In this document: positions 5,851 through 44,659 of the stretch, piece by piece
Numbering within the stretch: position 1 is the stretch's first letter
Layout: each line of letters begins with the position of its first letter
Assembly: GCA_964383855.1 (NCBI GenBank)
Contig: CAYLIP010000004.1
Location: 482 to 64,481, forward strand
DNA: 64,000 nt
Source of the DNA: an uncultured Actinomycetes bacterium
Lineage (GTDB): Bacteria > Chloroflexota > Dormibacteria > Dormibacterales > Dormibacteraceae
Reading direction: 5' to 3'
Made by a program: the position numbers and the translations under genes
Notes under the pieces: generated by a model
Databases searched by the model: none
What the model saw: the letters and a program-made list of their open reading frames with translations, nothing else
What the model was told of the DNA's origin: nothing

Positions 5851-6252
5851 ATGGCAACGCGAGCTTCCGCCCCTCGGCACCGGCTTCAGGCCCGCATCGC
5901 GCGGCGCGTCAACCCGAGCGTCGTCCGGCTGGCGCCATACATTCCGTTCTACTGCGTGCTCGATCACCGCGGGCGGTCCTCCGGCCGCAGCTTCCGGACG
6001 CCGCTGGCGGCGGTCCGGCTTGCGGATGGATTCCTGCTGCCGCTCGCCTTTGGCGAAGGCGCGAACTGGGTCCAGAACCTCACCCACGCCGGTTTCGCGG
6101 AACTCGAGTGGCGCGGACAGCGCTTCAAAGTGTCGAAGCCACGGCTGCTGGCCTGGGAAGAAGCGGCACTCTCATTGAACCCGGTCCAGCGTATCTTCGC
6201 GCCCGTCTTCGGGGCGCGCACCTTTCTCCGGGTCGAAGCCGGGACGGCCTGA
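5851..6252 (+). CDS. deazaflavin (F420H2)-dependent nitroreductase-family protein (DUF385-like)
   Basis: ATG at 5851. NPSVVRLAPYIPFYCVLDHRGRSSGRSFRTPL..GEGANWVQNL resembles the small split-barrel F420-dependent family. Divergent from the TetR gene. Confidence 0.7.
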   Translation: MATRASAPRHRLQARIARRVNPSVVRLAPYIPFYCVLDHRGRSSGRSFRTPLAAVRLADGFLLPLAFGEGANWVQNLTHAGFAELEWRGQRFKVSKPRLLAWEEAALSLNPVQRIFAPVFGARTFLRVEAGTA

Positions 6253-6314: not shown

Positions 6315-6479
6315 TCAGCCTCCGTGATCGTGAGGCTGTTTCACTGTCTGACCGACAGCGACGTACAGGCAGCCGTAGCAGACGGCGGTTTCGCAGCCTG
6401 GCTCTTCGCAGCACTCGCAGATTTCGATCGAGCGGTTGCAATGGGAGCATGAGACCGGAACGTTCGGCGTAGTCATCAT
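6315..6479 (-). CDS. 54-aa Cys-rich mini-protein (zinc-ribbon-like), absent from the ORF track
   Basis: Hand translation gives MMTTPNVPVSCSHCNRSIEICECCEEPGCETAVCYGCLYVAVGQTVKQPHDHGG. It has 8 Cys (CxxC..CxCC..C..CxxC). The ATGATGA overlap with the stop of the upstream rhodanese-CBS gene implies translational coupling. Confidence 0.5.
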   Translation of the reverse strand: MMTTPNVPVSCSHCNRSIEICECCEEPGCETAVCYGCLYVAVGQTVKQPHDHGG

Positions 6480-7165
6480 GTCGCCGCCTTCTGTGCGGCC
6501 ACCGCGTCCTCCTGTCGCAGCAGGCCGACGAGCCGTCCATCGGACGTGGTTATCGGGGAGCTGGTGAGCTGGTGCTCAGCCATGAACTGCGCCATCTCTT
6601 TGGCGGAGGCGAAGGGCCTGAAGGTGCTGGGTCCAGGGCGCATCGCCTGCTCGATCAGCTGATCCGGGTCCTTCTCGAGTTCCCTGGCCCGCAGCAGGCC
6701 GAGCACGACCCGCTCGTCGTTGACGACCACGACGGCGTCCCAACGCTGGCCTTTCACCCGGTCGCGCACATCGCCAAGCCGCTCTTTCAGACCGCAGGTC
6801 GGCGCATCCTTTCGCGCGAGGTCACCGGCTCGGGGAAGCTGCGCATTCGTCCCCTCGGTGCGCAGCCCGGCGCCCATCCAATCCACCTTGCCGTCGACGT
6901 AGTCGTAGACCCCTTCGAATCCCAAACTTTCGAGCCGCCACGCGGCTCGCGGAGACATGTCTCAAACGGCATCCCAGCAGTAGACGACGGCCGGCCGGCC
7001 GGGATCCAGCAACCGCGCCGCCTCGGACTCGATGTGGCGAAGCGGGATGTTGATCGCGCCTGGCAGATGGTCCTCCTCGTACTCATCCTTAGGAAGCACC
7101 TCGACCAGCTGAGCGCCGCCTTCGAGCAGCCGTTGAAGCTCTTCGCGATGGATTGACCTCGGCAC
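6476..7165 (-). CDS. rhodanese-domain / CBS-pair fusion protein with in-frame UGA (6962..6964); predicted selenoprotein, or a disrupted gene
   Basis: Track ORFs 6962..7165 and 6476..6958 are in the same frame, separated only by TGA-GAC. The joined reading VVYCWDAV-U-DMSPRAAWRLESLGFEGVYDYVDGKVDW restores a complete rhodanese fold. GTG start at 7165 with an AGGAGGA RBS. Confidence 0.6.
6931..6949 (-). promoter_or_regulatory. SECIS-like hairpin downstream of UGA
   Basis: On the minus strand: UGA, then 12 nt, then CGAGCCGC-GUG-GCGGCUCG (8-bp stem). Confidence 0.4.
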
Positions 7166-7412
7166 GTCTCAGTCCTCCTCTCTGCCAGAACGTCATGACT
7201 TTCAGCTTTTGCCATGGTGGCACCCCCTCCGGGGGTCATGGCGTCGATCTTGAAACCATGCCCACGCTACGCGACGGCGCAGGAACGCTCTGTCACGGCC
7301 ATCACGACCTCCCTCCGCCGGCCATGGGTTTGGACCGGTGCGTTTCAGACCGTGGCCGGCCGGACATCATCTAAGGGTGATCCCGGGTCACAGCCGCGGA
7401 TCGACACGCTCC

Positions 7413-7703
7413 ATGAACCTGCGGCACATGTCCAAATCTGAACTGCCGGAAGAAACGATCGTCGTCTACGCGACGTCCTGGTGTGGCGACTGCCGCCTCG
7501 CCAAGGCCGTGCTCGACGAGCAGCGGGCGCCCTACACCTTGATCGACATCGATCGGGAGCCGTCCGCAGTCGAGACGGTGCTGAAGCTCAACGGCGGCTA
7601 TCGAACCGTGCCAACGATAATCTTCCCCGACGGCAGGATCCTGGTCGAGCCGTCGCGCCGTGAACTCGAGGAAGCTCTGAAGGATTCCGCTTCGGCGGCC
7701 TGA
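7413..7703 (+). CDS. glutaredoxin/mycoredoxin-like thiol-disulfide oxidoreductase
   Basis: IVVYATSWCGDCRLAKAVL (CxxC) followed by TVPTIIFPDG, the thioredoxin-fold cis-Pro region. Start is ATG 7413 or 7428; the track start at 7338 is unlikely. Confidence 0.8.
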   Translation: MNLRHMSKSELPEETIVVYATSWCGDCRLAKAVLDEQRAPYTLIDIDREPSAVETVLKLNGGYRTVPTIIFPDGRILVEPSRRELEEALKDSASAA

Positions 7704-7758
7704 CGTCTGGCGGGTGAGTGGCCGAGGCCGATCGCTTCGGGCAACCGGAGGTGAAGAC

Positions 7759-8598
7759 ATGACGACGCTGAGACTGCCCAGCGGTGACGAGCTCAGTCCT
7801 GAGGATCGCGAGGTGGTCGACGGCATCGCCAGACGGCTCGGGACGCCTCCGGACGAGATGTCGATGATCTGGCAAGCGCAGCTTCACTGGCCCCAGCACC
7901 TGGAGGCCAACTACCGGCAGATGCTCTACAGCTACCGCTTCCAGGGCAGGATCCCGGCGCTGGCCAAGGAGGCCATGCACGCGGCGGTCTCCATGCACAA
8001 CCGCTGCGAGTTTTGACTGACGACGCATACGGCCGGCGTGCTCCGGCTGGGAATCGGCGAAAGGGGTGTCAGCGAGATCGTCGCCGTCGCCGAGCACGTC
8101 GCGAGCCTCTGTGCCGCCGCTGAGGCGCTGCGTCTTCCGGTCGATGTTCCCGAGGCGTCCAGGACCGCCGGCGCCGTTCGGCCGCTGGAGGCGGTCTCTC
8201 TCCAGGGCGAAGCCCGCGCCGCCATGGAGGAGATCGCGAGTTGGACTCAGGCCGGCCTGGGCACCTCTCACGTGCCTCTGATCTGGCGAAGCCTCGCCCA
8301 TCAGCCGCGGATGTTCGTCAACACCTGGCGCAAGGACCGCCTCGTCATGTCGGCGGGGCGGCTGGAACCCGGAATAAAGGCGTGCATCGCCTTCGCGGTG
8401 GCCGCCGCCAGGCAGAGCCCGTACATGATCGCGTACACCACTTCGCAGGTGAAGAGGTCGCTCGACCTCGAGGACGGCGCCCTGGTGGAGCTGGTTGCCG
8501 CGGTGATGCACTACGTCTCCTTCAACACGATCTCGCATGCGATGCTGCTGGAGCCGAGCCACACCGAGATGCGTGCGGCTGACTTCACCCAGGACTGA
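7759..8598 (+). CDS. two-domain AhpD/carboxymuconolactone-decarboxylase-like protein with in-frame UGA (8014..8016); predicted CxxU selenoprotein
   Basis: ATG at 7759 follows a GGAGGTG RBS. Track ORFs 7714..8016 and 8038..8598 share one frame. The joined reading AVSMHNRCEF-U-LTTHTAGVLRLGIGERGVSEIVAV matches the CMD-family C-x-x-C-x3-H motif, with U at the second Cys. Confidence 0.65.
8030..8049 (+). promoter_or_regulatory. SECIS-like hairpin downstream of UGA
   Basis: UGA, then 13 nt, then CGGCCGG-CGUGCU-CCGGCUG (7-bp stem including one G-U pair). Confidence 0.4.
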
Positions 8599-9272: not shown

Positions 9273-9872
9273 TCAGCCGGACCGGCCGGCCTCGTCGCGG
9301 CGGGTCAGGATCCCGAGCAAGGCCTTCCAGGGTCCGACGGCCTGGTCGCGGCTGCCTGCCAGCGCGGCATACATCTGCTGCACGTGGTCCAGGTCGTGCA
9401 CCGCCCAGGTTGAGACGAGCTGGCCCAGGGTCACCTCTCCGAATTCGGGGTGAACTCCGCGGCGCTCCAGGTCGGCCTCGTCGTCAACCAGAGCTGCCAG
9501 GCGGGCCAGGCTCTGGGCCCGAAGTGAGGCGAAGCGCTCCACCAGGTCGGCCAGCGGCACGCCCACGTCCCGCTCGACGTGGGCAAACCGGTCGAAGCCG
9601 TCGAAGGTCCGGCTCGTGCCCTCCGTGAGGATCATCTCAACCCGCGGGATCCAGTTCTGGACTTCGGCCGAAATCAGGTGACCCACGACATCGCGTGGCG
9701 TCCAGCCACCGGCGGTGTCCAGCTCCTCGAGCCAGCTCTCTGGGAGACCCACCAGCAGCTCGCGCACAACCGCCGGCGTCCGCCCCAGCAGGGCAATCGT
9801 ATCTTCCATGAAGGCGCCGGCGGCCACCGCGCCATGGTAAAAGGGCTTGCGCATCGGCGCCGTTCGGTCCAC
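9273..9872 (-). CDS. DinB-family (four-helix-bundle metal-binding) protein
   Basis: GHLISAE..WAVHDLDHVQQM gives the histidine pattern of DinB_2-type proteins. The start is uncertain (9872, 9854 or 9809). Confidence 0.7.
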   Translation of the reverse strand: MDRTAPMRKPFYHGAVAAGAFMEDTIALLGRTPAVVRELLVGLPESWLEELDTAGGWTPRDVVGHLISAEVQNWIPRVEMILTEGTSRTFDGFDRFAHVERDVGVPLADLVERFASLRAQSLARLAALVDDEADLERRGVHPEFGEVTLGQLVSTWAVHDLDHVQQMYAALAGSRDQAVGPWKALLGILTRRDEAGRSG

Positions 9873-23581: not shown

Positions 23582-24513
23582 CACCTCTTCCTCCTCGTGC
23601 CCGCACCGTCGCCGCCGCCGTCGCCGTCGCCGCCTTCGCCCCCGCCCCGCGGCCGGCCCGCCGCCGGCGCCGGCTCCCTGGCCGGCTCGACCGGCACCGT
23701 CTCGGTCATGGCCGGCGGCGACCCTCCGCGGCGGCGAAGGGCTATCAAGCCGCCGACCACGGCCAGCACCGCCGTCACGACCGCGCCCAGGTAGCCGGGA
23801 ATGTTGTTGCGGCTGGGCAGCACCGCATTGGCGGCGCTGGGCAGCTTGTATGTCTCCGGCTCGTCCATGAGCAGGAAGAAAGAGTTGAGGCCGCCGTAGA
23901 CGCTGGTGTCGCGCCCGTAGAGCTGCGCCTTCTTGAAGCCCTGTCCCTGGAGCAGAGCCAGCCGGGCGTCGGCCGCCTTGTGGAGATCGGCGAGCGTGCC
24001 GAACTGGATCGACTGCGTGGGGCAGGCCTTGGCGCAGGCGGGCATGAGGTTGTTCTGGAGCCGGTCGTAGCAGAGCGTGCACTTGTGCGCGGTCCCGGTC
24101 GTCGAACTGAAGCCGATCACCGAGTACGGGCAGGCGGAGATGCAGTCGCGGCAGCCGTTGCAGACCGGCTGCTGGATGAAAACGGTGTCGAACTCGGTCC
24201 GGATGATGGCACCGGTCGGGCAGACCTCCATGCAGGAGGCGTGCTGGCAGTGCTTGCAGACGTCGGACATCATGAGGAACGCCTGGCCGCCCGCCGCCGT
24301 CGGCTGCTTGATCTCGCCGCCGGCGGGAACGGTCTCGATGAACCGGACATGGCGCCAGTTCTGAGCGTCGAGCTGGCCCGTGTTGTCGAAGGAGTCGAGC
24401 AGCAGGTTGGGCTCATTGCCCTCGAGCTGGTTCCACTCCTTGCAGGCCACCTCGCACGCCTTGCATCCGATGCAGACGGAGGTGTCGGTGAAGAACCCGA
24501 CCGGCTCGGCCAC
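23581..24513 (-). CDS. fdnH: formate dehydrogenase iron-sulfur (beta) subunit with C-terminal TM anchor and Gly/Asp-rich tail
   Basis: Several ferredoxin Cys clusters are present (CIGCKACEVACKEWN, CKHCQHASCMEVCP, CNGCRDCISACP, CTLC..CAKACP). Confidence 0.9.
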   Translation of the reverse strand: MAEPVGFFTDTSVCIGCKACEVACKEWNQLEGNEPNLLLDSFDNTGQLDAQNWRHVRFIETVPAGGEIKQPTAAGGQAFLMMSDVCKHCQHASCMEVCPTGAIIRTEFDTVFIQQPVCNGCRDCISACPYSVIGFSSTTGTAHKCTLCYDRLQNNLMPACAKACPTQSIQFGTLADLHKAADARLALLQGQGFKKAQLYGRDTSVYGGLNSFFLLMDEPETYKLPSAANAVLPSRNNIPGYLGAVVTAVLAVVGGLIALRRRGGSPPAMTETVPVEPAREPAPAAGRPRGGGEGGDGDGGGDGAGTRRKR

Positions 24514-24529
24514 TCTGCTGCTTACCTCC

Positions 24530-25321
24530 TCAAAACCCCATCAGGTTGGGCGTGATCTTGGCCAGCCCGCGGTCGCGCGCGTAGAGGTCGAGGGGGATGG
24601 CCGCCAGCTCGTCAACCACGGGAACCGCCCGTCCGTCCTTGGCGCAGTCGACGGTGACCAGGTACCGGCGGCAGGACGCGCAGGCGTCGACGCGCAGGCT
24701 CGGAAAGACGTCGTGGTCGGCGTAGACGGGGAGATTCCGGCTCTCCGATTCACCGCAGCCGGCGCAGACCATGCGCGCGACCGGCCAGGCCCGCGCGCAG
24801 CGCGAGCACTCGAGCATGCGCTGGCCGGTCAGCAGCGCCTCGCCGCCGGCCGTGAAGACGGAGACCTGGGGCGGCGCGCCGCACTCAGGGCAGTGCAGCC
24901 GATCCGGCGCTTGAGGACGCGGCATGACGCCGGGCAGCGCCTCCAGCACCGGCGCGCACGAGGCTCGCGCGAGATACCGCGCGGCCGGCTCCTGCTCGGC
25001 CCCGGTCAGCCAACCGCCGATCGCATCCTGCACGCCGCCCGCATAGACCAGCGCCTGGAGGGCGGTCACCAGCGTCTCCGGACCCACCGCCGCGGTGACG
25101 GTGACCACGGCGGGCGCCACCGCCTCGGCCACCCAGCGGGGCAGCTCGTCGAAGCCGGGGCCGGCCTCGGTGGCGGCGGTGCCCGCCCGCTCCTGCACAT
25201 CCAGCAGCGATGCGTAGAGGCGCAGCATCTCGCCGGCGTGAGGGTAGCGTTCGGCCAGCTCGCGGGCGCGCGTCCTGCGCGCCTGGTAGGTCGCGATCGG
25301 GGTCCCCAGTGCGGTGCTCAC
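24530..25321 (-). CDS. fdhE: formate dehydrogenase accessory protein FdhE
   Basis: Paired CxxC motifs (CPECG, CSRC, CAGCG, CASCRRYL) in the FdhE-like order. Located between the fdnG and fdnH genes. Confidence 0.8.
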   Translation of the reverse strand: MSTALGTPIATYQARRTRARELAERYPHAGEMLRLYASLLDVQERAGTAATEAGPGFDELPRWVAEAVAPAVVTVTAAVGPETLVTALQALVYAGGVQDAIGGWLTGAEQEPAARYLARASCAPVLEALPGVMPRPQAPDRLHCPECGAPPQVSVFTAGGEALLTGQRMLECSRCARAWPVARMVCAGCGESESRNLPVYADHDVFPSLRVDACASCRRYLVTVDCAKDGRAVPVVDELAAIPLDLYARDRGLAKITPNLMGF

Positions 25322-28300
25322 AGCTTCTTGATGTTGACGAGGAACGACTTGAACTCGGGGGTGCGCGAGTTGGCGTCGCCCACGAACGGGGTGAGGGCGT
25401 TGGCAAGCCAGTTCTTCGAGCGGTCGGGGTTCTGCTCGGCCGATACGCCGACGAAGCCCCAGTGGATGGGGATCCCGATGTGATAGACCTTCTTGCCGCC
25501 GACCGTGAGCGGCCCCAGTCGCTTGGTCACAAGCGCGGCCACCGTCAGCTTGCCGCGGGGGTTGAACACCTCGACCGCGTCACCGTTGGCGATGCCAAGC
25601 TTGGCGGCCAGCTCCTCGGGCACCTCGACGAAGGCCTGGGGCTGCAGGCCGACCAGCAGCGGCACGTGCTGCGTCACGTAGTGCTCGTGCTCCGTCAGGC
25701 GGTAGCTGGTGGCGATGTACGGGTAGTCCTTGGCGGTGCCGAACCGGCTCTTACGGCCCGCCTGCTGGTCGTACAGGAAGGCCACCGGGGACTCGCTCTG
25801 GCCGGGATGGAGCGGGTTCGGGATCGGCGACTCGATGGGCTCGTAGTGCTCGGGAAAGGGCCCGTCGTTGAGCGAGTTGCTGAAGAGCCGGCCCACCCCC
25901 TCGCCGTTCATGATGAAAGGCAGCCAGGCGACCGGATCCTGGGTGATCGGCTTCATGGTGGGCGGGTAGTCGGGCACGTCGCCCACCCACTTGGAGCCGT
26001 CCCACTGGATGCCGGCGCGCTTGGGGTCCCAGGGCTTGCCGTCCAGGTCGGCGGAGGCGCGGTTGTAGAGGATCCGCCGGTTGAGCGGCCACGTCCAGCC
26101 CCACTGGTGGTAGAAGCCAAGGCCGGTCGGATCGTTCTTGGCCGGGTCCTGGATGCCGTCGCGGCGCTTCATGAGGTTGCCGGCGTCGGGATAGGAGCCG
26201 GTGTAGATCCAGTCGCCGGCGGTGGTGGAGCCGTCGTCCTTCAGGTTGGCGAAGGTCGTCAGCTGCTTGCCGGTCGTGAGGTCCTGGCCATTGATCTCGC
26301 GGGCGAGCTCGTCCAGGTCGGGCTTGACCGGGTCCTTGTAATTGAAGGTCAGCGCCTTGATCGGGTCGGGAAACTTGCCGCCTGACTGGTAGAGCTTGCG
26401 CACCCGCTGAAAGAGATCGGCCAGGATCCAGTGGTCGTGCCGCGATTCACCCTCGGGCGGGATCACGGCGTCCTTCCACTGGCCCATCCGCCCGCTGTTG
26501 ACGAAGGAGCCCTCCTTCTCGATCCAGTGCGTCGCGGGCAGCATGAAGACCTCGGTCTGGATGTTCTTGGGGTCGAGGCCGGGCGCATGCCAGAACTCGC
26601 TGGACGTCGTCTTGAGCGGGTCCATCACGACCAGCCACTTGAGGTTGGACAGCGCTTGCAGGACCTGGTTGGAGTCGGGACCGATGCTGGTCGCCGTCAT
26701 CCCGCTCAGGATCACCCCCTGCATCTTTCCCTTCAGCGCCTGGTCGTAGATCGAGATCCAGCTCGAGTTGGCCGCCGGCTTGGGGATGTAGGAGTACGCG
26801 AAGTCGTTGTCCTTGGTCGCGGCATCGCCGTACCAGGTCTTCAGCAGCGAGACCAGGAACTTCTTGTAGTTGAGACCGAAAAAGTTCCAGGAGTTGGGGT
26901 CGCTCTTCTTGGGCGGCGCTTTGTCGTTGTACTGGGCGACCGTCTGCCATGCGGGATCGGGGATCTTGAGATAGCCGGGAAGGATCTCCCAGGAGATGGC
27001 GTTGTCCGTGTTGCCCTGGATGTTGGCGTGTCCGCGCTCGGCGTTCATGCCGCCGCCGGGCATGCCCATGTTGCCCAGCAGCAGCTGGAGGACGGCGCCG
27101 CTGCGGATCAGCTGGACGCCGGTGGTGTGGTGCGTCAGGCCGACCGCGTAGACGATCGTCATCACCTTGTCCGGCTTCCCCATCTCGCCGACCAGCCTGG
27201 CGACCTCCAGGAACTGGTCCTTAGGTATGCCGGTGACCTGCTCCACCATCTCCGGCGTGTAGCGCGAGTAGTGCTTCTTCATGAGCTGGAAGACGGTCTG
27301 CGGGTCCTGCAGCGTCATGTCGCGGGCGGCGTAGCTGTCGCTGCCGGTGGTCTGCGGTCCCTGGCCCTGCCCCAACCCTGCGTTCTGGTCGTTCTGGCTG
27401 GGCGGCGTGGCGTTCTGGTACGCCCAGGTCGAGATGTCGTAGCTGCGCTTGGCCTTGTCGTAGCCGCTGAACAGCCCGTCCGTGAAGCCGAAGCCCTCCT
27501 TAACCAGGAAGGAGGCGTTGGTGTAGTGCTTGACGTACTCGGCCTGGTGGAGGTTGTTCGAGAGCACGTAGTTGATCAGTCCGCCGAAGTAGGCGACGTC
27601 GCTACCCGTGCGAATGCGCAGGTAGATGTCGGCCATCGCCGAAGTCCGCGTGAAGCGCGGGTCGGCGTGGACGATCCGGGCACCGCCGCCGCTGCCCGGA
27701 CCCCGCTTGGGATCGAGCTTGGCCTTGACGAACCACTGGAACCCGACCGGGTGCGCCTCCGCCGGGTTGGCGCCGTTGATCAGGATCAGGTCGGCGTTCT
27801 TGATGTCGCGCCAGTGGTTGGTCATGGCGCCTCTCCCGAACGTGGCCGCCAAACTGACGACCGTCGGGCCGTGTCAAACGCGGGCCTGTTGCTCTATGTG
27901 CACCACGCCAAGGCCACGCATGACCTTGGCGGCGAAGTAGCCCTCCTCGCTGCTGAAGGCGGCCCCGCCGGCGAAGGCGATGCCCTCGGTCCGGTTGACC
28001 GTGTTGCCGGCCGCATCCTGGGCGACGAACGTCGCGTCCCGCGAAGCCTTGATGTTCTGCGCGATCTTGTCGAGCACGAAGTCCCAGGACTTCTCCTGCC
28101 AGGCGGAGCTGCCGGGAGCCCGGTAGAGCGGCTTCTGAACGCGGCGGGCGGACACGGCCAGCTGCATGGAGCTGGCGCCCTTGGGACACAGCCGGCCCTC
28201 GTTGACCGGGCTGTTGGGGTCGCCTTCGATCTGCAGGAGCTCGGTCTTGCCGCCGGCGCCGGTCCGCGTGTAGGCGACCAGCGAGCAGCCCACCGCGCAG

Positions 28301-28458
28301 TAGGGGCAGACGCTGTGCGATTCCCTGGCGTCGGCGATCCGCAGGCCCTGGCTCACGGTGCGTGCCTGAGCGAGATCAAAGCCGAGCCCGGCCACGCCCA
28401 GGGCGGCGGTGGAGGCTGCTCCAATCTTGATGAAGTCACGCCTGGAGACGTGAGTCAT
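25318..28458 (-). CDS. fdnG: formate dehydrogenase-N-type catalytic (alpha) subunit, selenocysteine-containing (UGA at 27874..27876), Tat-exported
   Basis: Track ORFs 27874..28458 and 25318..27852 are in one frame (3141 nt). The junction IEQQARV-U-HGPTVVSLAATFGRGAMTNHW matches the E. coli FdnG Sec site (ARVUHGPTV). Also has the twin-arginine signal SRRDFIK and a CPYCAVGC FeS motif. Confidence 0.9.
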
Positions 28459-28508: not shown

Positions 28509-29396
28509 TCAGGCAAGCGTCAACGGACCGGTTTGGGTGAGCGCGGCCGCGCCCGAGTAGATGTTGAAGCGGCCGTCCCTGACGAACCCGGCGAGCGTCA
28601 GGCCGAACCGCCTCGCCGCCTCGACCGCGAGGCTGGAGGGGGCGCCGACCGCGATCACCGCCGGGATCCCGGCCACGATCGCCTTCTGGGCGACCTCGTA
28701 GCCCACTCGGCCGCTCACCGCGAGCACCAGCGCCGAGAGGTCGCGAGCATCGAGCATCGAGCGGCCCACGACCTTGTCGACGGCGTTGTGGCGCCCGATG
28801 TCCTCGCGCACCACCACCGCTTCGCCGGCGGCCGTGAAGAGGCCGGCACCGTGCAGCCCGCCCGTTCGCTCGAAGATGCCCTGAGCCGCCCGAAGCCGGT
28901 GGGCGAGCCGGGGCAGCAGCGCCGCCTCCAGGCGGGGTGCCGGCCCCAGGGCGCGCACATCGTGGGCCAGCTCCTCCACCGTCGTCTGGCCGCAGACGCC
29001 GCACGCCGAGCTGACCGGCAGCGCCCGCGCCCGTACCCTCCCCGCCGCCGCCGGCGCCAGCCGGACGTCGACCGCGTTCGACTCGAGCAGGCTGCGTTCG
29101 ATCGTGACCGCCGTCTCGGACACCTCGGAATCCGGAAGCTCGGCCGAGGCGGCCAGGCTCTTCACGTCGGGCAGCGCCTGGATGACGCGCTCGCTGCGGA
29201 GCAGCCCCAACGCCAGCTCCACGTCCGAGCCCGGCGTGCGCATCACGATCGACCACGGGCTGCCGTCGATCAGCAGCTGGAGCGGCTCCTCGGCCGCCAC
29301 CTGGTCGTCCTCGACCGTGAATGCCCCCTCGATCCAGCGGGTCACCGTGATCGGCGGGGCCTGCGGCCGCGGCATGGCGCTGATCCTATACTCCAC
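28509..29396 (-). CDS. fdhD: formate dehydrogenase sulfurtransferase accessory protein FdhD
   Basis: SSACGVCG and GRHNAVDKVVG motifs. The start may be the internal Met at 29375. Confidence 0.9.
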   Translation of the reverse strand: MEYRISAMPRPQAPPITVTRWIEGAFTVEDDQVAAEEPLQLLIDGSPWSIVMRTPGSDVELALGLLRSERVIQALPDVKSLAASAELPDSEVSETAVTIERSLLESNAVDVRLAPAAAGRVRARALPVSSACGVCGQTTVEELAHDVRALGPAPRLEAALLPRLAHRLRAAQGIFERTGGLHGAGLFTAAGEAVVVREDIGRHNAVDKVVGRSMLDARDLSALVLAVSGRVGYEVAQKAIVAGIPAVIAVGAPSSLAVEAARRFGLTLAGFVRDGRFNIYSGAAALTQTGPLTLA

Positions 29397-29402
29397 GCTC
29401 CG

Positions 29403-29819
29403 ATGCTCCCAGTCGTGGTCGAGCTGCCGGGTGAGTTCGAGTCGGCCGGGGAGTGGCTGGCCGACGCCCAGGCCATGGAGTCAGCGGGCGCCGCGGCCCT
29501 GCTCGTCAAGGCCGGGTCACTCGATCGCCAGGCCCTGCTCGCCGCGCTGGCCGCCTCGACCCTTCGCGTGACCATCGCCGCCGCTGATGCTTCCCCGACC
29601 GTTCGGCTCCTGGGCCGCGGACGCGTCGTCGCCGAGGACGACGGGTGGCGACGCCTTCCCGAGCCCGAGAGCCGGGCTCACTGGCGCGAACTGCACGCGG
29701 AGGCCGAGGCCGGCGGCGCAACCGGCGTCGTCGCAGCCTTCAGCCCGCGGCTGCTCGACCTCCTCCGCAACGACGACGTGGAGGAGGATCGCTCCGACCT
29801 CCGGCTCGCGCAGGGCTGA
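29403..29819 (+). CDS. hypothetical protein
   Basis: 138 aa with strong GC3 bias and no recognised family. It starts only 6 nt from the divergent fdhD track start, so one of the two starts is probably wrong. Confidence 0.45.
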   Translation: MLPVVVELPGEFESAGEWLADAQAMESAGAAALLVKAGSLDRQALLAALAASTLRVTIAAADASPTVRLLGRGRVVAEDDGWRRLPEPESRAHWRELHAEAEAGGATGVVAAFSPRLLDLLRNDDVEEDRSDLRLAQG

Positions 29820-29859
29820 CCGCCGAGGCCGTTCGGCGCTAAATTCTCTTGCCGTGAGC

Positions 29860-30189
29860 ATGGATTCCGTAAACGAGCCCAGGAACGGCACGGTCCTGCG
29901 GTTGGTGGCGGACGACCGCGGCAACTACGTCGAGGTCAACGACGAGGCCGTCCGGGTTCTCGGCTACAGCCGCGAGGAGCTCCTGCAGATGAGCGTGTGG
30001 GACCTCACTCCGGGCGCCCGCGAGCTCGACGGCCTGGCCATGTGGCAGGACTTCATTCGCAGCGGCGAGCAGTCCGGGGAGTACGTGATGAAGACCAAGG
30101 GCGGTGCCCTGCTCAAGCTGTACTACCGCGCGCGCGCCAACATCGCGCCCGGCCGCCACGAGTCGATCCTGACGCTGATCCCGAGTTAG
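29860..30189 (+). CDS. stand-alone PAS-domain protein
   Basis: ATG at 29860. YVEVNDEAVRVLGYSREELLQMSVWDLTP..GEYVMKTKGGALLKLYYRA is a PAS core. Confidence 0.7.
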   Translation: MDSVNEPRNGTVLRLVADDRGNYVEVNDEAVRVLGYSREELLQMSVWDLTPGARELDGLAMWQDFIRSGEQSGEYVMKTKGGALLKLYYRARANIAPGRHESILTLIPS

Positions 30190-30225
30190 CGAGCCGGTCA
30201 GCGGGCGGGGCTATCCTCGGCGCAA

Positions 30226-31695
30226 ATGCGCCGCCTTGCTCCGTACCTGGCGGGCGCCGCCGGCGTCATCCTGGTCACCGCCGCGATCGGCGCCGTCCGG
30301 CGCTGGCTCGACACGCCCGCCCTCACCGTCGCCTACATCGTGCTCGTGATCTATGTCGGGGCACGCTCGGGACGTCTGCCGGCGCTGGCGACCGCGGTGC
30401 TCGGCTTCGCCGTCTACGAGTTCTTCTTCGTACCCCCGTACGGCTCGCCGGCGATCAGCGCGCCGCGCGACGCCGTCAGCCTGGTCCTGCTGCTGGCCGC
30501 CGCAGCCCTCAGCGAGCGAATCGTCGGCGCCCTCGTGCAGCGAAGCATGGGCGCGGAGGCCAAGGCGCGGGAGTCACAGAGCCTTTACGAGGTGGCGTTC
30601 GCCGCGCTCGGCAAGGCCGAGCCCGCGGCCGCCCTCGAGCTGCTCTGCCATCGCGCCGCGCACGAGCCGGGGATCCTCTCCATGACCATCCTCGAGGAGA
30701 AGGACGGCAGGCTCGAGGTGCTGGCCGGCCCGGCGCCGAGCGCGCCCGAGTCTTCACGGGCGGGCTGGGTGGCGGCGCACGGGCAATCGCTCGGGGTGCG
30801 CCTGGACGGTGGCGGGCTCGCACTCCTGAAGACCTTCCCGACCGAGCCGGCGTACGTCCGGCTCCCGGCCGGGGTGGCTGTCATCCGGGTGGCGGCGTCC
30901 GGGCCTTCGTCGGAGTCGGCGCGCGTCCTGGCGGCGCTGGCGGCCATGGCCGGCCTGCTCCTCGACCGCCGTCGCGTCGGCGAGCAGGCCGAACGCGCGC
31001 GCTCGGCCGAGGAATCCGACCGGCTCAAGACGAGCGTTCTCTCTGCCCTCACCCACGACGTCAAGACGCCGCTCGCCTCGCTCCAGACCGGCCTCGGCGC
31101 GATGGAGCTCGATCCGCGGCTGAACGAGGAGCAGCGACAGATGCTGCAGGGCCTCGAGTCGCAGGCAGCGCGCCTCGACCGCATCGTCCACAACGTGCTG
31201 ACGCTGACTCGGCTGGACGTGGGGCCACCCGGCGTGAGCGCCCCGGTGTCCCTGCCCGAGGTCGTCGGCTCGGCGGTCACATCGCTGGAGCGGGTCCTCT
31301 CGCCTTTCAAGCTCGACGTCAGGGTGCCGGAAGATCTGCCACCGGTGCTGGCCGACGAGGTGGAGCTCGACCGGGTGTTCACCAACCTGCTCGACAACGC
31401 CGCCCACTGGGCGCCCGCGGGCGCTCACATCGAGGTCGGCGCGCGGGCGCGCGAGGCGCGGGTGGAGGCCTGGGTCGAGAACGAGGGCCCGGATATCCCG
31501 CCCCAGGCGCTGAGCGAGATCTTCGCCAGCTACTGGACGCAGCGGCCGGAGGGTTCCGGCCTCGGACTCGCCATCTGCCGCCGGATCCTGGAGAGGCATG
31601 GTGGCTCGATCAGCGTCCGCAACACGCGGCGCGGGCCCCGGTTCACCCTCCGGCTCCCGATCGCCGGCGAGGCCCGGGCGGACAAGCAGCCTTGA
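30226..31695 (+). CDS. sensor histidine kinase, KdpD C-terminal type (DUF4118 membrane module + HisKA + HATPase)
   Basis: The membrane module TVAYIVLVIYVGARSG..GFAVYEFFFVPPYGS is DUF4118-like. H-box LTHDVKTPL, N-box NLLDNA, G-box GSGLGLAI. No KdpD N-terminal sensor domain. Confidence 0.9.
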   Translation: MRRLAPYLAGAAGVILVTAAIGAVRRWLDTPALTVAYIVLVIYVGARSGRLPALATAVLGFAVYEFFFVPPYGSPAISAPRDAVSLVLLLAAAALSERIVGALVQRSMGAEAKARESQSLYEVAFAALGKAEPAAALELLCHRAAHEPGILSMTILEEKDGRLEVLAGPAPSAPESSRAGWVAAHGQSLGVRLDGGGLALLKTFPTEPAYVRLPAGVAVIRVAASGPSSESARVLAALAAMAGLLLDRRRVGEQAERARSAEESDRLKTSVLSALTHDVKTPLASLQTGLGAMELDPRLNEEQRQMLQGLESQAARLDRIVHNVLTLTRLDVGPPGVSAPVSLPEVVGSAVTSLERVLSPFKLDVRVPEDLPPVLADEVELDRVFTNLLDNAAHWAPAGAHIEVGARAREARVEAWVENEGPDIPPQALSEIFASYWTQRPEGSGLGLAICRRILERHGGSISVRNTRRGPRFTLRLPIAGEARADKQP

Positions 31696-40257: not shown

Positions 40258-40423
40258 CAGTTCCTCCAGGTGTTGCGTGCTCTGCTCGCGCAGGCCCGCG
40301 AAGTATGTACCGAGGATGCCCTATTCCAGGTCTGATGCGCCGAAATCGGCGGCCGGCAGCCGCCCGGCAGCTTCCGATCGTGCCGATCACCGGCACTAAA
40401 CATGATATAAGTGATATCAGAGA

Positions 40424-41962
40424 ATGTCCCAGTCCCAACGCCGCAACAACCGCGGGCCCGGCGTCGAGTCAAAGCCTGGCTCTCACCGACGACCCAGGCC
40501 GGGCGCCGGCGGTGGCTCCGCCGCCAACGGCGGGCCGGTCAACGATCCCGTGCTTTCCGCCCTGCCCGTGGGCCCCGACCAGGAGCCCGAGCTTGACGAG
40601 CTCCTGAAGGAGAAGGGGGAGCGGTCGGGGCAGGCCGCGGCCACCGGCGTCCCCCCCGCCGGGCGCACGACCCTCGACGAGGCGCGGCGGCGGGGCCCGG
40701 TCGGGTGGCTCCAGCTCCTCGGCCCCGGGCTGATCACCGGTGCCAGCGACGATGACCCGAGCGGGATCGGTACGTACTCCCAGGTCGGCAGCCAGTTCGG
40801 CTTCGGCATGCTCTGGATGGCGCTCTTCACCTTTCCTCTCATGGCGGCCATCCAGGAACTCTGCGGACGGATCGCGCTCGAAACTGGCGTCGGGCTCGGC
40901 GTCGCGCTCAGGCGCAAGTTTCCGACCTGGCTGATCGGCGTCTGCATCCTGGCGCTCTTCGTGGCCAACACCTTCAACATCGGCGCCGACATCGGCGCGG
41001 TCGCGACCGGCGGCTCGATGCTCACTCGTGGCCACGTCCCTGAGGGCTGGCTCGTGGTGCCGGTGGCGCTGCTGGTGCTGGGACTCCAGTTCTTCGTCAG
41101 CTACCGGCGGATCTTCTCGATCTTCAAGTGGCTGACGCTCGCCCTCTTTGCCTACATCGTCACCGGGCTTATCGCGCACCCCGACGCGCTGACCGTGCTG
41201 AAGTCCACCCTCGTCCCTCACGTCGAGCTGTCGAAGGACTTCATCACGGCGATGGTCGCGGTGCTCGGCACCACCATCTCGCCCTACCTGTTCTTCTGGC
41301 AGGCCTCCTCAGAGGTCGACGAGATGCGAGCCGCCGGAATGCAGACGGAGGCCGACCGGCGGGGCGTCAAGATCTCCGAGCTGAAGGCGGCCAGGACCGA
41401 CATCCTGATCGGGATGTTCTTCTCGCAGGTGGTGATGTACTTCATCATCTTCACCACCGCCTCCGTGCTGCATGCGCACGGCAAGACCGACATCCAGACC
41501 GGCGAGCAGGCGGCGGCGGCGCTGACGCCCTTCCTCGGACCGTTTGCCTTCGTCGCCTTCGCGGTCGGGCTGATCGGGACCGGGCTCCTCGCCGTCCCCA
41601 TCCTCTCCGGCTCGGCGGCCTACGCCGCCAAGGAGTTCTTCGGGATCAAGGGCGCGCTCTCGACGCGGCCGATCTACCGTCCGACCTTCTACGGGATCCT
41701 CGCCCTGGCCACGCTCGCCGGCCTGACCATGAACTTTCTGCACCTCGACCCGATCAAGGCGCTCTTCTACACGGCGGTGATCAACGGCGTCGTGGCGCCA
41801 CCGCTGATGGTGCTGATCATCCTGCTCGGGTCCGACCCGGCCTACATGAACGACAAGGTGAGCGGACGGCTGTCGAAGGCGCTGACCTGGATCGGCGCCG
41901 CCGCCATGGCGGTGGCCGCGGTGGCGATGCTGGTCCTGGTGATCCCGGGCATCAAGCTCTGA
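40424..41962 (+). CDS. Nramp-family divalent metal transporter (distant clade, long disordered N-terminus)
   Basis: [21 protein letters not shown] is the DPGN-like region, followed by about 11 TM helices. Confidence 0.85.
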
Positions 41963-41983
41963 CCGCCGCCGAGGCGGAGGCCG

Positions 41984-42643
41984 TCAGCAGCAGCGTACGC
42001 GGCCCTCGCGCGCGCCCTCGATCGCCTCGCGCGTCTCGGGCACAAGCCAGACCAGCATTAGGATCGCGCCCGCGTAGTCGGCCCACCACCAGCCCAGGAA
42101 GGTGTTGAGCGCCACGGCGGCCAGCACGGCCCCGGCCAGGTAGGCGCAGGCGATCGACTCCGCGATGTCGGCCTGCAGCGCGGCACTGCCGAGGACCCGG
42201 TTGGCCCGCCGCTTGGCCGCCGCCAGCAGCGGCATCCCGACCAGGGCCGCCCCGGCGACGAGGAGGCCGGGCACCGATCCCTCCGGACGGAGGCGGAGCG
42301 CGAGCCCGCCCGCGGCCGCCGCCAGCACGTAGAGGCAGAGCAGCACGAGCAGCCCCGCCGCCAGCCAGGCCGCCCGAGCCTCGACCGCGTTGACGCGGGC
42401 CGGCGAGCTGGCGCGCTGCTCAACCGCAAGCCTCCAGAGGAGCAGGGCGCCGCTCAGCAGCTCGATCAAGCTGTCGGTGCCGAAGGCGCCGAGGGCGACG
42501 CTTCGGGCGCCCGCCGCGGCCGCGATGGCGACCCCCGATTCGACCGCCATCCAGGCCACGGTGAGCACTTCCAGGAGGAGGGCGGCGCGAACCGCCTGGC
42601 GCCGCCCCGGCGAGTTCACTTGAGCTAGTTCTGGTATCTGCAT
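41984..42643 (-). CDS. cation-efflux (CDF-like) membrane protein lacking a cytoplasmic domain
   Basis: Six hydrophobic helices; FGTDSLIELLSG resembles the CDF TM2 metal site. Divergent from the DtxR-family gene. Confidence 0.65.
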   Translation of the reverse strand: MQIPELAQVNSPGRRQAVRAALLLEVLTVAWMAVESGVAIAAAAGARSVALGAFGTDSLIELLSGALLLWRLAVEQRASSPARVNAVEARAAWLAAGLLVLLCLYVLAAAAGGLALRLRPEGSVPGLLVAGAALVGMPLLAAAKRRANRVLGSAALQADIAESIACAYLAGAVLAAVALNTFLGWWWADYAGAILMLVWLVPETREAIEGAREGRVRCC

Positions 42644-42645
42644 TC

Positions 42646-42678
42646 GGTTAGCCTAGCAGCCATGTTAGGGTATCCTAA
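42646..42678. promoter_or_regulatory. candidate DtxR/IdeR/MntR-type operator
   Basis: The perfect inverted repeat TTAGG-GTAT-CCTAA lies at 42665..42678, with a TTAGCCTA half-site at 42648..42655. Both resemble the TTAGG..CCTAA arms of iron boxes. They lie between the divergent CDF-like and regulator genes. Confidence 0.45.
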
Positions 42679-42683
42679 AAGAC

Positions 42684-43361: not shown

Positions 43362-44659
<1,298 letters not shown>

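What the first reader, a model, noticed from the sequence alone, without database searches (positions are those of the whole stretch)
7759..8598. Two-domain AhpD/CMD-like protein with C-x-x-U redox motif encoded by in-frame UGA
ORFs 7714..8016 and 8038..8598 share one frame. Reading through TGA 8014..8016 gives ..EAMHAAVSMHNRCEF-U-LTTHTAGVLRLGIGERGVSEIVAVAEH... This reproduces the carboxymuconolactone-decarboxylase/AhpD signature (S-x2-N-x-C-x-x-C-x3-H ... G-x-s-x-x-e-i), with Sec replacing the second Cys.

The downstream half is a second CMD-like domain in which both Cys are lost (AAARQSPYMIAYTTSQV). The UGA-containing motif would therefore be the only redox centre.

A 7-bp hairpin starts 13 nt after the UGA. 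An excellent RBS (GGAGGTG) precedes ATG 7759. As I recall, AhpD-like CxxU/UxxC selenoproteins are known from metagenomic surveys, so the family-level precedent is established. This specific tandem-domain member appears unannotated by the ORF track.
Basis: partly seen in the sequence, partly recalled or inferred. Interest (0 to 1): 0.75.

Follow-up and report, generated by a model that had tools for sequence, protein, structure and literature searches.

The report
Two-domain AhpD-like selenoprotein gene
One 279-codon gene for an AhpD-type redox protein has been split in two by gene callers because its active-site selenocysteine is encoded by an in-frame UGA; it is a real but unsurprising new member of a selenoprotein class known since 2005.

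Summary
Window 7759..8598 (+) is one reading frame with a single in-frame TGA (8014-8016) inside the motif S-x2-N-x-C-E-F-[TGA]-L-T-T-H. The Pfam CMD/AhpD domain is recognised only when the two halves are joined.

The same TGA is present in 99 of 102 related loci, from MAGs assigned to seven phyla. The three TGC loci are all one Cys-form protein (C-R-H-C). Public gene calls split the family into 85-aa and ~186-216-aa fragments.

A hairpin 13 nt after the UGA (8030-8049, loop CGUGCU) meets all four published bacterial SECIS criteria. It is kept by compensatory changes that use synonymous codon positions.

The same window holds an FDH-N alpha subunit with the classical Sec UGA and a rhodanese-CBS gene with a UGA/Cys pair, so this organism very probably decodes Sec.

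The protein is a tandem duplication of an AhpD-core unit. The first copy carries E71/C83/U86/H90, matching M. tuberculosis AhpD E118/C130/C133/H137. The second copy has lost the redox motif.

Verdict: a genuine CxxU AhpD-like selenoprotein from a subfamily that no curated NCBIfam model covers. The kind is well known, so interest is moderate to low.

The parts
7747..7753 (+). Shine-Dalgarno-like GGAGGTG, 5 nt upstream of the start codon
   Evidence: Read directly from the sequence.
7759..8598 (+). Complete coding sequence of the AhpD-like selenoprotein: 279 codons, Sec at codon 86, true stop TGA 8596-8598
   Evidence: Single frame with one internal TGA. Pfam CMD spans the stop. The start M-T-T-L-R is conserved. 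Codon-position variability runs pos3 > pos1 > pos2 on both sides of the UGA.
7969..7971 (+). Glu71, counterpart of M. tuberculosis AhpD Glu118
   Evidence: hhalign of A1 against MtAhpD. Nearly invariant in A1.
8005..8007 (+). Cys83, first residue of C-x-x-U, counterpart of MtAhpD Cys130
   Evidence: Invariant in all homologues. Alignment.
8014..8016 (+). UGA codon 86, read as selenocysteine, counterpart of MtAhpD Cys133
   Evidence: TGA in 99 of 102 loci and TGC in the one Cys form. Aligned to the second Cys of CxxC in P0039, PDB 2ouw/2pfx and MtAhpD.
8026..8028 (+). His90, counterpart of MtAhpD His137
   Evidence: Invariant. Alignment.
8030..8049 (+). SECIS-type hairpin. Core stem 8032-8036 / 8043-8047, two weaker outer pairs, apical loop 8037-8042 (CGUGCU) with G-U at loop positions 2-3. 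There are 20 nt between the UGA and the loop.
   Evidence: Fold. RNAalifold finds the same hairpin in 64 distinct sequences. Third positions of codons 92-94 are invariant. Consensus criteria come from PMC13188914.
7759..8148 (+). N-terminal AhpD-core unit (about residues 1-130), redox-active, carries C-x-x-U
   Evidence: Profile hits to PDB 2ouw, 2pfx, 3c1l and 1gu9. TIGR01926 and TIGR00778 partial hits. The N-domain of the P0039 model has pLDDT about 80-90.
8149..8238 (+). Variable linker (about residues 131-160)
   Evidence: Highest amino-acid entropy and length variation among homologues. Non-helical, at lower confidence than the flanking helices (block pLDDT about 81-92), in the model.
8239..8595 (+). 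C-terminal degenerate AhpD-core unit (about residues 161-279). The CxxC position is replaced by S220-P-Y-M223. Cys209 (8383-8385) is invariant among the Sec forms.
   Evidence: AF2 model pLDDT 88.5. Best Foldseek PDB hit is 2ouw (E 3.3e-4, TM 0.75 on the target, 131 columns). The 2ouw profile hits both halves of the query. MAFFT aligns N-fragments onto this domain. Cys invariance.
7413..7703 (+). Context: mycoredoxin/glutaredoxin-like gene (CGDC) ending 55 nt upstream on the same strand. Possible operon partner and electron donor.
   Evidence: Pfam Glutaredoxin. TIGR02200 mycoredoxin at 79.1 bits against a cut-off of 89.5. The partnership is an inference.

Best explanation
Window 7759..8598 (+) is one gene for a roughly 30-kDa selenoprotein of the AhpD/CMD superfamily.

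How it is translated: when the ribosome reaches UGA 8014-8016, the hairpin at 8030-8049 acts as a bacterial SECIS. It recruits SelB-GTP-Sec-tRNA(Sec), so selenocysteine is inserted as residue 86 and translation runs on to the real stop at 8596-8598.

What the protein is: a tandem duplication of an AhpD-core helical unit. The first unit keeps the catalytic set Glu71 / Cys83-x-x-Sec86 / His90. Sec sits at the position of the nucleophilic second Cys of the AhpD CxxC. The second unit has lost the redox pair and most likely serves as the built-in partner of a pseudo-dimer.

How it probably works: it cycles between selenol/thiol and selenenylsulfide. In doing so it acts as a thiol-disulfide oxidoreductase that re-reduces a peroxiredoxin-type partner, or a hydroperoxide directly. 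A small thiol protein, such as the mycoredoxin-like protein encoded 55 nt upstream, would reduce it in turn.

Shown here: single gene, conserved UGA, a Sec/Cys pair, the SECIS-type hairpin, two AhpD-core domains, and the catalytic residues. Inferred: actual Sec insertion, the substrate, the electron donor, and the role of the second domain.
For: - Domain continuity: Pfam CMD (E 3.1e-10) spans the stop, and neither half qualifies alone.
- Conservation of the UGA: TGA at the same column in 99 of 102 loci from MAGs labelled Actinomycetes, Dormibacterota, Chloroflexota, Gamma/Betaproteobacteria, Rokubacteria, Acidobacteria and Gemmatimonadetes. All 68 distinct genes have exactly one internal stop and no frame change.
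- Sec/Cys pair: full-length P0039 has C-R-H-C at the site. Distant two-domain CxxC forms exist.
- Gene callers truncate everywhere: the C-terminal hits are 186-216 aa at about 66% coverage, and 31 of 31 N-terminal hits are fragments ending in C-x-x: 27 of 85 aa, the rest 50-98 aa.
- Coding selection on both sides: codon-position entropy is 0.79/0.62/1.26 upstream and 0.74/0.52/1.29 and 0.78/0.65/1.26 downstream. The seven codons between the UGA and the called GTG start are conserved as protein.
- SECIS: the hairpin is found by RNAalifold in 64 distinct sequences. Pair 26-39 is CG 47, UA 9, GC 5, GU 3 with none unpaired. Pair 25-40 is GC 57, AU 3, GU 1. In pair 29-36 the window itself has GC where the other 63 have CG. 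The covariation score is 0.230 against 0.117 in shuffles (0 of 500 reach it) and at most 0.142 when partners are slid. The 3' partners are synonymous third positions of Arg and Leu codons. Third positions of codons 92-94 are invariant.
- All four bSECIS consensus criteria are met: 6-nt loop, 5-7 bp stem, G at loop position 2 followed by U, 20-nt spacing, MFE -14.8 kcal/mol.
- Sec decoding in this organism: an FDH-N alpha subunit (TIGR01553, 1280 bits) has UGA in ...QARV*HGPTV.... A rhodanese-CBS gene has UGA where homologues have Cys. All three UGAs are followed by hairpins with loop G-U at +23 to +26.
- Catalytic residues: E71/C83/U86/H90 align with MtAhpD E118/C130/C133/H137.
- Second domain: the AF2 model (pLDDT 88.5) matches AhpD core 2ouw with TM 0.75.
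- Neighbours in about 60 loci include AhpC-TSA 7, Redoxin 5, DsbD_TM 6 and Thioredoxin 2.
Against: - There are no experimental data.
- The folding energy of the single sequence is not better than shuffled 70%-GC sequence (z -0.26 and -0.09). The RNA argument therefore rests on comparative data.
- The compensatory changes trace to a few clades, perhaps 4-5 independent events. The shuffle control can be exceeded by related sequences without any structure.
- No selA, selB, selD or tRNA-Sec was found among the window ORFs tested.
- The U-to-C version scores 26.4 bits on TIGR00778, just under the 27.8 cut-off, and is far below the cut-offs of every specific AhpD-type model.
- The neighbourhood is not conserved. 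Only about 1 locus in 5 has a peroxiredoxin-like or DsbD-like neighbour.
- No reliable full-length model was obtained, so the arrangement of the two domains is unknown.
Confidence: 0.9

Rival explanations
1. The TGA is a true stop. There are two separate genes: an 85-aa peptide and a 186-aa protein started at GTG 8038, possibly translationally coupled. The conserved hairpin and the invariant GUG would then serve re-initiation.
For: Every public gene caller makes exactly this call. The GTG at 8038-8040 is invariant in 64 sequences.
Against: - The split falls inside one AhpD-core domain, one residue short of completing its CxxC motif, and neither half is a recognisable domain alone.
- The frame relation is kept in 68 of 68 distinct genes, and the seven codons before the GTG are conserved as protein (L-[TS]-x-H-x-A-A, His90 invariant).
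- Cys forms are single polypeptides.
- There is no purine-rich ribosome-binding site before the GTG.
- The GTG lies in the loop, where the SECIS consensus requires G-U.
Confidence: 0.04
2. UGA is read through without the Sec machinery, for example by near-cognate Trp or Cys insertion or some other recoding. The protein would be full length but not a selenoprotein.
For: No sel genes were seen in the 64-kb window. The computation cannot tell which residue is inserted.
Against: - Most genes in the window end in TGA, so UGA is the ordinary stop here.
- The site is the nucleophilic Cys position of a redox motif, with a Cys homologue.
- A consensus-type SECIS hairpin is maintained by compensatory changes.
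- FDH-N in the same window carries its classical Sec UGA.
Confidence: 0.04
3. It is a pseudogene or an assembly or sequencing error that created a stop in an ordinary CxxC AhpD-like gene.
For: None beyond the bare presence of a stop codon.
Against: The identical arrangement occurs in independent assemblies of the same organism (L020-L022). It also occurs in 64 distinct sequences from many samples and phyla.
Confidence: 0.01

Closest known systems
AhpD-like CxxU selenoproteins (AhpD-like 1, COG2128/TIGR01926; AhpD-like 2 / CMD-domain, PF02627) from the Sargasso Sea and GOS metagenomes
   Same: AhpD/CMD superfamily. Sec replaces the second Cys of CxxC. A bacterial SECIS hairpin with a loop G lies just downstream. 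Peroxiredoxin-like neighbours occur in some loci (PMC1088965, PMC2398784, PMC13188914).
   Different: The window protein is about 280 aa with two AhpD-core units. It scores only 27.2 bits on TIGR01926 (cut-off 81.8). It comes from soil and groundwater MAGs of Actinomycetes, Dormibacterota, Chloroflexota and others, not from marine plankton. Close relatives are almost all Sec forms: only one distinct Cys form (three TGC loci) among the 102 loci examined (99 TGA).
Mycobacterium tuberculosis AhpD (Rv2429; PDB 1gu9/1knc)
   Same: The catalytic constellation Glu / C-x-x-C / His aligns residue for residue: E71, C83, U86, H90 against E118, C130, C133, H137. From my own knowledge of the AhpD literature, Cys133 is the attacking nucleophile, which is the position occupied by Sec here.
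   Different: TIGR00777 scores 13.2 bits against a cut-off of 191.95. MtAhpD is a 177-aa all-Cys protein next to ahpC and is reduced by the lipoamide system. Here there is no adjacent ahpC, a mycoredoxin-like gene lies upstream, and an extra degenerate domain is present.
Rhodospirillum rubrum 'AhpD core' protein, PDB 2ouw (138 aa, function uncharacterised)
   Same: Best sequence-profile match (E 2.4e-14) and best structural match. Both halves of the window protein match it, so it represents the single unit that was duplicated.
   Different: A single-unit Cys protein with C-S-Y-C. No Sec and no tandem repeat.
NF041238 AhpD_rel_CFYUT, alkylhydroperoxidase-related (seleno)protein ('hypothetical protein 1' of the Sargasso Sea)
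   Same: A similar local motif (C-F-Y-U-T against C-E-F-U-L-T) in an AhpD-related domain.
   Different: 23.5 bits against a cut-off of 175. The model is 357 positions long and only positions 175-253 align.

Membership tests
Bacterial selenoprotein gene (Sec-UGA with bSECIS) | In-frame UGA conserved at the same position among homologues, with coding conservation on both sides | tested here: met
   TGA in 99 of 102 loci. 68 distinct genes each have exactly one internal stop. Codon-position pattern is pos3 > pos1 > pos2 on both sides.
Bacterial selenoprotein gene (Sec-UGA with bSECIS) | Cys-containing homologue with Cys aligned to the UGA | tested here: met
   P0039 has C-R-H-C. Distant two-domain CxxC forms include P0292, P0295, P0315, P0321 and P0379.
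Bacterial selenoprotein gene (Sec-UGA with bSECIS) | bSECIS consensus: 3-9 nt apical loop, 4-16 bp stem, G in the first two loop positions, 16-37 nt from the UGA to the loop, MFE <= -7.5 kcal/mol (PMC13188914) | tested here: met
   Loop CGUGCU (6 nt, G at position 2 followed by U), 5-7 bp stem, 20-nt spacing, -14.8 kcal/mol.
Bacterial selenoprotein gene (Sec-UGA with bSECIS) | Sec machinery (selA, selB, selC, selD) in the same genome | tested here: inconclusive
   None found in the 64-kb window, and the rest of the genome is not available. Indirect support: FDH-N alpha with its classical Sec UGA, and a rhodanese-CBS UGA/Cys pair, in the same window.
Bacterial selenoprotein gene (Sec-UGA with bSECIS) | Selenium actually incorporated at the UGA | not testable with these tools
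   Needs 75Se labelling or mass spectrometry.
AhpD/CMD superfamily (Pfam PF02627) | Score above the Pfam gathering threshold | tested here: met
   40.3 bits against 23 for the joined protein, with the best stretch at residues 58-126 across the UGA.
AhpD/CMD superfamily (Pfam PF02627) | AhpD catalytic signature: Glu ... C-x-x-C-x3-H | tested here: met
   E71, C83, U86 and H90 align with MtAhpD E118, C130, C133 and H137. They are invariant or nearly invariant in homologues.
AhpD/CMD superfamily (Pfam PF02627) | All-helical AhpD-core fold | tested here: met
   The C-terminal half model (pLDDT 88.5) matches 2ouw with TM 0.75, rmsd 3.3 A, E 3.3e-4. The N-terminal half is supported by profile only (2ouw 2.4e-14, 2pfx 7e-9). 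The full-length model is of low quality, and its structural matches (best 2ouw, E 0.076) are not significant.
TIGR00778 AhpD family core domain | Score at or above 27.8 bits | tested here: inconclusive
   The window protein with U changed to C scores 26.4, just below the cut-off. The Cys form P0039 scores 45.9 and passes.
AhpD-like 1 selenoprotein family (COG2128 / TIGR01926 peroxidase-related enzyme) | TIGR01926 score at or above 81.8 bits | tested here: not met
   27.2 bits. Residues 4-124 align to model positions 3-119 of 178. It is related but not a member by the curated cut-off.
NF041238 AhpD_rel_CFYUT (seleno)protein | Score at or above 175 bits | tested here: not met
   23.5 bits.
TIGR00777 AhpD (M. 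tuberculosis type) | Score at or above 191.95 bits; adjacency to ahpC | tested here: not met
   13.2 bits. No ahpC next to the window gene.

The most novel reading that the evidence does not exclude
The gene represents a distinct, not yet curated, nearly Sec-obligate clade of tandem AhpD-core proteins. This clade has spread, with its SECIS, by horizontal transfer among aerobic soil and groundwater phyla (Actinomycetota, Dormibacterota, Chloroflexota, Rokubacteria, Acidobacteriota, Gemmatimonadota, Pseudomonadota). In this actinomycete it would work with the adjacent mycoredoxin-like protein and the divergently transcribed C-x4-U rhodanese-CBS selenoprotein as a small selenium-based thiol/persulfide redox module.
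Probability: 0.15. Interest if true: 0.5.

Novelty: new member of a known kind. Interest (0 to 1): 0.33.

Why it matters
Practical value: public annotation splits this gene into two meaningless ORFs in hundreds of metagenomic and MAG records. No curated model would rescue it. A family model plus the SECIS alignment would correct these calls and add to the selenoproteomes of soil phyla that are poorly sampled for Sec use.

Biological value: it is a further case of Sec replacing the nucleophilic Cys of an AhpD CxxC, in a tandem architecture with one dead copy. It sits in an actinomycete-like genome whose 64-kb window alone holds three candidate selenoprotein genes.

It does not change what is understood about Sec decoding or about AhpD chemistry.

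Tried and rejected
- **Rfam.** Gathering-threshold scan of the whole window and an E-value scan of 7700-8700 gave only a tRNA and chance-level hits. Rfam has no usable bacterial SECIS model, so this is uninformative rather than negative.
- **Single-sequence folding energy.** Not distinguishable from shuffles (z -0.26 and -0.09). I dropped it as evidence in favour of comparative analysis.
- **A longer lower stem** pairing the CUGAC after the UGA with GUCAG about 50 nt downstream (MFE). It is not conserved in homologues.
- **Full-length structure prediction.** The tool refuses the U-to-C joined sequences. MAFFT aligns N-terminal fragments onto the C-terminal domain, or the reverse, because of the internal duplication. 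The Cys form P0039 with an N-fragment alignment gave pLDDT 62.9 with a poor C-domain, and its Foldseek matches were not significant (best 2ouw, E 0.076). Only the C-terminal half gave a confident model.
- **Sec machinery in the window.** ARAGORN found only tRNA-Arg. Thirty-three large ORFs scanned against Pfam or NCBIfam showed no SelA, SelB or SelD.
- **Conserved gene neighbourhood.** Only a minority of loci have peroxiredoxin, DsbD or thioredoxin neighbours, and the rhodanese and mycoredoxin neighbours of the window are not general.
- **Promoter/terminator scan of 6300-9300.** Nothing above the shuffled expectation.
- **Scan of the window for further in-frame TGAs with coding signal on both sides.** It returned only the three cases reported, plus antisense-frame noise.
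Full report
**1. The observation**

Translating window 7714-8598 (+) gives one frame with a single internal stop, TGA 8014-8016. The context is ...KEAMHAAVSMHNRCEF*LTTHTAGVLRLGIGERGVSEIVAVAEH.... GGAGGTG lies at 7747-7753, 5 nt before ATG 7759. The N-terminus M-T-T-L-R is the conserved start of the family.

With the stop replaced by Cys, the 279-aa protein hits Pfam CMD (PF02627) at E 3.1e-10. That is 40.3 bits against a gathering score of 23, and the best stretch (residues 58-126) runs across the stop at residue 86. The N-half alone hits nothing, and the C-half alone reaches only 15 bits. The window is 69.8% G+C. The + frame shows the expected GC3 excess on both sides of the stop.

**2. Comparative evidence that the UGA is decoded**

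- A search of 5.8 billion proteins returned more than 200 relatives. Nearly all are 186-216 aa and cover only the C-terminal 66% of the query, so they are truncated at the same place. One full-length relative, P0039 (267 aa), has C-R-H-C at the site.
- A search with the N-terminal 85 residues returned 31 proteins. Twenty-seven are 85 aa and the rest 50-98 aa; those fetched end in ...N-x-C-E-[FY].
- DNA of 13 genome loci and 80 metagenome loci was fetched. The codon at the aligned column is TGA in 99 loci and TGC in 3, and all three TGC loci encode P0039.
- The genome records are MAGs labelled Actinomycetes, Dormibacterota, Chloroflexota, Gammaproteobacteria, Hydrogenophaga, Rokubacteria, Acidobacteria and Gemmatimonadetes.
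- Sixty-eight distinct full genes each contain exactly one internal stop and no frame change.
- Codon-position entropies are 0.79/0.62/1.26 for residues 1-85, 0.74/0.52/1.29 for residues 94-130, and 0.78/0.65/1.26 for residues 161-279. Both sides are therefore under protein-level selection in the same frame.
- The seven codons between the TGA and the GTG that gene callers use as a start are conserved as L-[TS]-x-H-x-A-[AG], with His90 invariant.
- Most genes in the window end in TGA, so the genetic code is not reassigned.

**3. The RNA element**

Immediately downstream lies a hairpin:
- The core stem is 8032-8036 paired with 8043-8047.
- Two weaker outer pairs extend it to 8030-8049.
- The apical loop, 8037-8042, reads CGUGCU.

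RNAalifold on 64 distinct 54-nt segments predicts the same hairpin. Pair counts are:
- Pair 26-39 is C-G in 47 sequences, U-A in 9, G-C in 5 and G-U in 3, with none unpaired.
- Pair 25-40 is G-C in 57, A-U in 3 and G-U in 1, with 3 unpaired.
- Pair 29-36 is C-G in 63 sequences and G-C in one, the window itself. There an Ala-to-Gly change (GCC to GGC) is matched by a synonymous CTG-to-CTC change.

The 3' partners are third positions of Arg96 and Leu95 and the first position of Leu97. When residue 92 changes (Ala, Ser, Gly or Val), pairing is therefore restored through synonymous sites. One clade even uses the rare Arg codon CGA.

The covariation score is 0.230, against 0.117 ± 0.009 in shuffles (0 of 500 reach it) and at most 0.142 when partners are slid. 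Third positions of codons 92, 93 and 94 are invariant, although third positions elsewhere average 1.3 bits.

The published bacterial SECIS consensus has four criteria: a 3-9 nt loop, a 4-16 bp stem, G in the first two loop positions (usually followed by G or U), and 16-37 nt from the UGA to the loop with MFE <= -7.5 kcal/mol (PMC13188914). All are met here: a 6-nt loop with G-U at positions 2-3, a 5-7 bp stem, 20 nt of spacing, and -14.8 kcal/mol.

Caveats:
- The single-sequence energy is no better than shuffled sequence of this composition (z about -0.1 to -0.3).
- The compensatory changes trace to only a few clades.
- One homologue (L043) has loop CUUGCU.
- Rfam gave no hit, but it has no general bacterial SECIS model.

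**4. Does this organism decode Sec?**

No selA, selB, selD or tRNA-Sec lies in the window. Two other genes in the window carry in-frame UGAs at catalytic positions.

- *FDH-N alpha subunit.* Window 25318..28458 (-) encodes a Tat-signal formate dehydrogenase-N alpha subunit. It scores 1280 bits on TIGR01553 (cut-off 814), and TGA 27874-27876 falls in the classical ...QARV*HGPTV... site. It is flanked by FdhD, an FDH beta subunit and an FdhE-like gene.
- *Rhodanese-CBS protein.* Window 6476..7165 (-) encodes a rhodanese-CBS protein with TGA 6962-6964 in VVYCWDAV*DMSPRAAW, and the Pfam Rhodanese hit spans the stop. Full-length homologues carry Cys there (VVYCWDTVCDLSPRAAW). Dozens of other homologues (about 85 of the 120 listed) are called as 160-aa fragments. 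The TGA and its hairpin recur in two other actinobacterial loci.

All three UGAs are followed by GC-rich hairpins whose loops carry G-U at +23/24 (FDH), +24/25 (rhodanese) and +25/26 (AhpD-like), counted from the U of UGA. This makes Sec decoding in the organism very likely.

**5. What the protein is**

A profile of the family against PDB sequences finds the following:
- AhpD-core protein 2ouw, E 2.4e-14
- peroxidase-related proteins 2pfx, 2oyo and 2prr
- Mlr4105 (3c1l)
- RclX (7y4r)
- M. tuberculosis AhpD 1gu9, E 1e-3

The C-x-x-U aligns on their C-x-x-C. Both halves of the query match 2ouw: residues 62-129 and, separately, residues 165-206. MAFFT also persistently aligns N-terminal fragments onto the C-terminal domain. 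The protein is therefore a tandem duplication of an AhpD-core unit of about 130 residues.

In the second unit the motif position reads S220-P-Y-M223, so the redox pair is lost. An AlphaFold model of the C-terminal 186 residues has pLDDT 88.5 and pTM 0.83. Its best PDB match is 2ouw, with TM 0.75 on the target, rmsd 3.3 A over 131 columns and E 3.3e-4.

hhalign against MtAhpD aligns E71, C83, U86 and H90 with E118, C130, C133 and H137. From my knowledge of the AhpD literature, Cys133 is the nucleophile, activated through His137, a water and Glu118. Sec therefore occupies the attacking position, as is usual for CxxU and UxxC selenoproteins.

A full-length model could not be obtained with confidence.

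**6. Likely mechanism and context**

SelB-dependent insertion of Sec at codon 86 gives a two-domain protein. Its N-domain cycles between selenol/thiol and selenenylsulfide. It would act as an AhpD-like oxidoreductase towards a peroxiredoxin-type partner or a peroxide. The degenerate C-domain probably supplies the partner surface that homo-oligomers provide in single-unit relatives; this is an inference.

In the window a mycoredoxin/glutaredoxin-like gene (CGDC; TIGR02200 at 79 bits against a cut-off of 89.5) ends 55 nt upstream on the same strand. It is a plausible reductant, which is also an inference.

Across about 60 non-redundant loci the flanking ORFs include AhpC-TSA (7), Redoxin (5), DsbD_TM (6), DUF3179 (6), Crp-type regulators (7) and Thioredoxin (2). 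The association is suggestive of thiol redox, but it is not conserved.

**7. Comparison with what is known**

AhpD-like CxxU selenoproteins were described from the Sargasso Sea in 2005: 27 sequences, COG2128, plus four CMD-domain CxxU sequences and 'hypothetical protein 1'. They were among the most abundant families in GOS: AhpD-like 1 with 299 sequences and AhpD-like 2 with 70 (PMC1088965, PMC2398784). Current reviews and BSepDB list several AhpD-type selenoprotein families: TIGR01926, PF02627, NF041047, NF041238 and NF041537 (PMC13188914, PMC13326102).

The window protein reaches none of the curated cut-offs:

| Model | Score (bits) | Cut-off (bits) |
|---|---|---|
| TIGR01926 | 27.2 | 81.8 |
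| NF041238 | 23.5 | 175 |
| TIGR00777 | 13.2 | 191.95 |
| TIGR00778 | 26.4 | 27.8 |

NF041047 gives no hit. Its Cys relatives pass only the generic TIGR00778 domain model. More distant two-domain CxxC proteins of about 250-275 aa exist, so the tandem architecture predates the Sec clade. I could not check whether BSepDB already lists members of this subfamily.

**8. Verdict**

It is a new, unannotated member of a well-known kind of selenoprotein. Arguably it belongs to an uncurated tandem-domain subfamily. Its value lies mainly in annotation and in describing selenoproteomes of soil bacteria.

- Confidence that it is a selenoprotein gene: about 0.9.
- Confidence in the AhpD-like oxidoreductase function: about 0.6.
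- Interest: 0.33.

Noticed in passing
window 25318..28458 (-), TGA at 27874-27876: Formate dehydrogenase-N alpha subunit (Tat signal, 1046 codons) with the classical Sec UGA in QARV*HGPTV. It passes TIGR01553 (1280 bits) and is followed by a hairpin with loop GUU at +23-25. It is flanked by FdhD (28512..29480 -), an FDH beta subunit (23584..24540 -) and an FdhE-like ORF (24533..25579 -). A mechanical ORF list splits it into 194-aa and 851-aa pieces.
   Followed up: yes
window 6476..7165 (-), TGA at 6962-6964: Rhodanese + CBS protein with an in-frame UGA five residues after the active-site Cys (VVYCWDAV*DMSPRAAW, that is C-x4-U). Full-length homologues have Cys at that position, with Arg or Ser in a few. 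Dozens of others (about 85 of the 120 listed hits) are called as 160-aa fragments. The TGA and a GUG-loop hairpin recur in loci L107 and L109. It does not match the listed rhodanese selenoprotein models (NF045694 TsoB scores 20.8 bits against 805). It may be an undescribed Sec form of rhodanese and deserves its own evaluation.
   Followed up: partly
window 6476..8598: Two candidate selenoprotein genes (rhodanese-CBS on the minus strand, AhpD-like on the plus strand) flank a mycoredoxin-like gene (7413..7703 +). Together they form a compact thiol/selenol redox cluster. The arrangement is present in independent assemblies of the same organism (L020-L022, L104-L106) but not in other homologue-bearing loci.
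   Followed up: partly
window 8383-8385 (Cys209 of the AhpD-like protein): A Cys in the degenerate second domain (K-x-C, 'IKACIAF') is invariant in 62 C-terminal fragments of Sec forms. It is Phe in the Cys form P0039 and Tyr in L016. It may be a third redox-relevant residue; its position relative to Sec86 is unknown.
   Followed up: no
L043 (about 1501-2289): One Sec-form homologue has Leu instead of Val at residue 94. This changes the SECIS loop from CGUGCU to CUUGCU, which lacks the consensus G in the first two loop positions.
   Followed up: no
L018 (about 1990-2927): In a Dormibacterota MAG only the last ~84 codons of the gene remain. The upstream in-frame sequence looks like a transposase/integrase, so this copy appears to be cut by a mobile-element insertion.
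   Followed up: no
flanks of homologue loci L024-L103: Neighbouring ORFs include DUF3179 (6 loci; listed as a selenoprotein family in PMC13188914) and GRDB-like proteins (2 loci). This hints that some of these genomes cluster several selenoprotein genes.
   Followed up: no
window 29572..31695 (+), TAG at 30187-30189: A PAS-containing segment (205 codons, GC3 0.88) and a KdpD/HisKA-type histidine kinase ORF (501 codons) lie in the same frame, separated by a single TAG. This could be an interrupted sensor kinase, an assembly error, or two genes that are in frame by chance.
   Followed up: no
window 40415..44659 (+): Two Nramp-family transporter genes flank a DtxR/IdeR-type metal-dependent repressor with a FeoA domain (42669..43361). 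This looks like a manganese/iron uptake locus.
   Followed up: no
window 5851..6249 (+), 7413..7703 (+), 9276..9872 (-): An F420H2-dependent quinone reductase-like ORF, a mycoredoxin-like ORF and a DinB/MDMPI-like ORF, together with 69.8% G+C, point to an actinomycete-type host. The closest genome-resolved homologue (68% identity) is an 'uncultured Actinomycetes bacterium' MAG (L007).
   Followed up: partly
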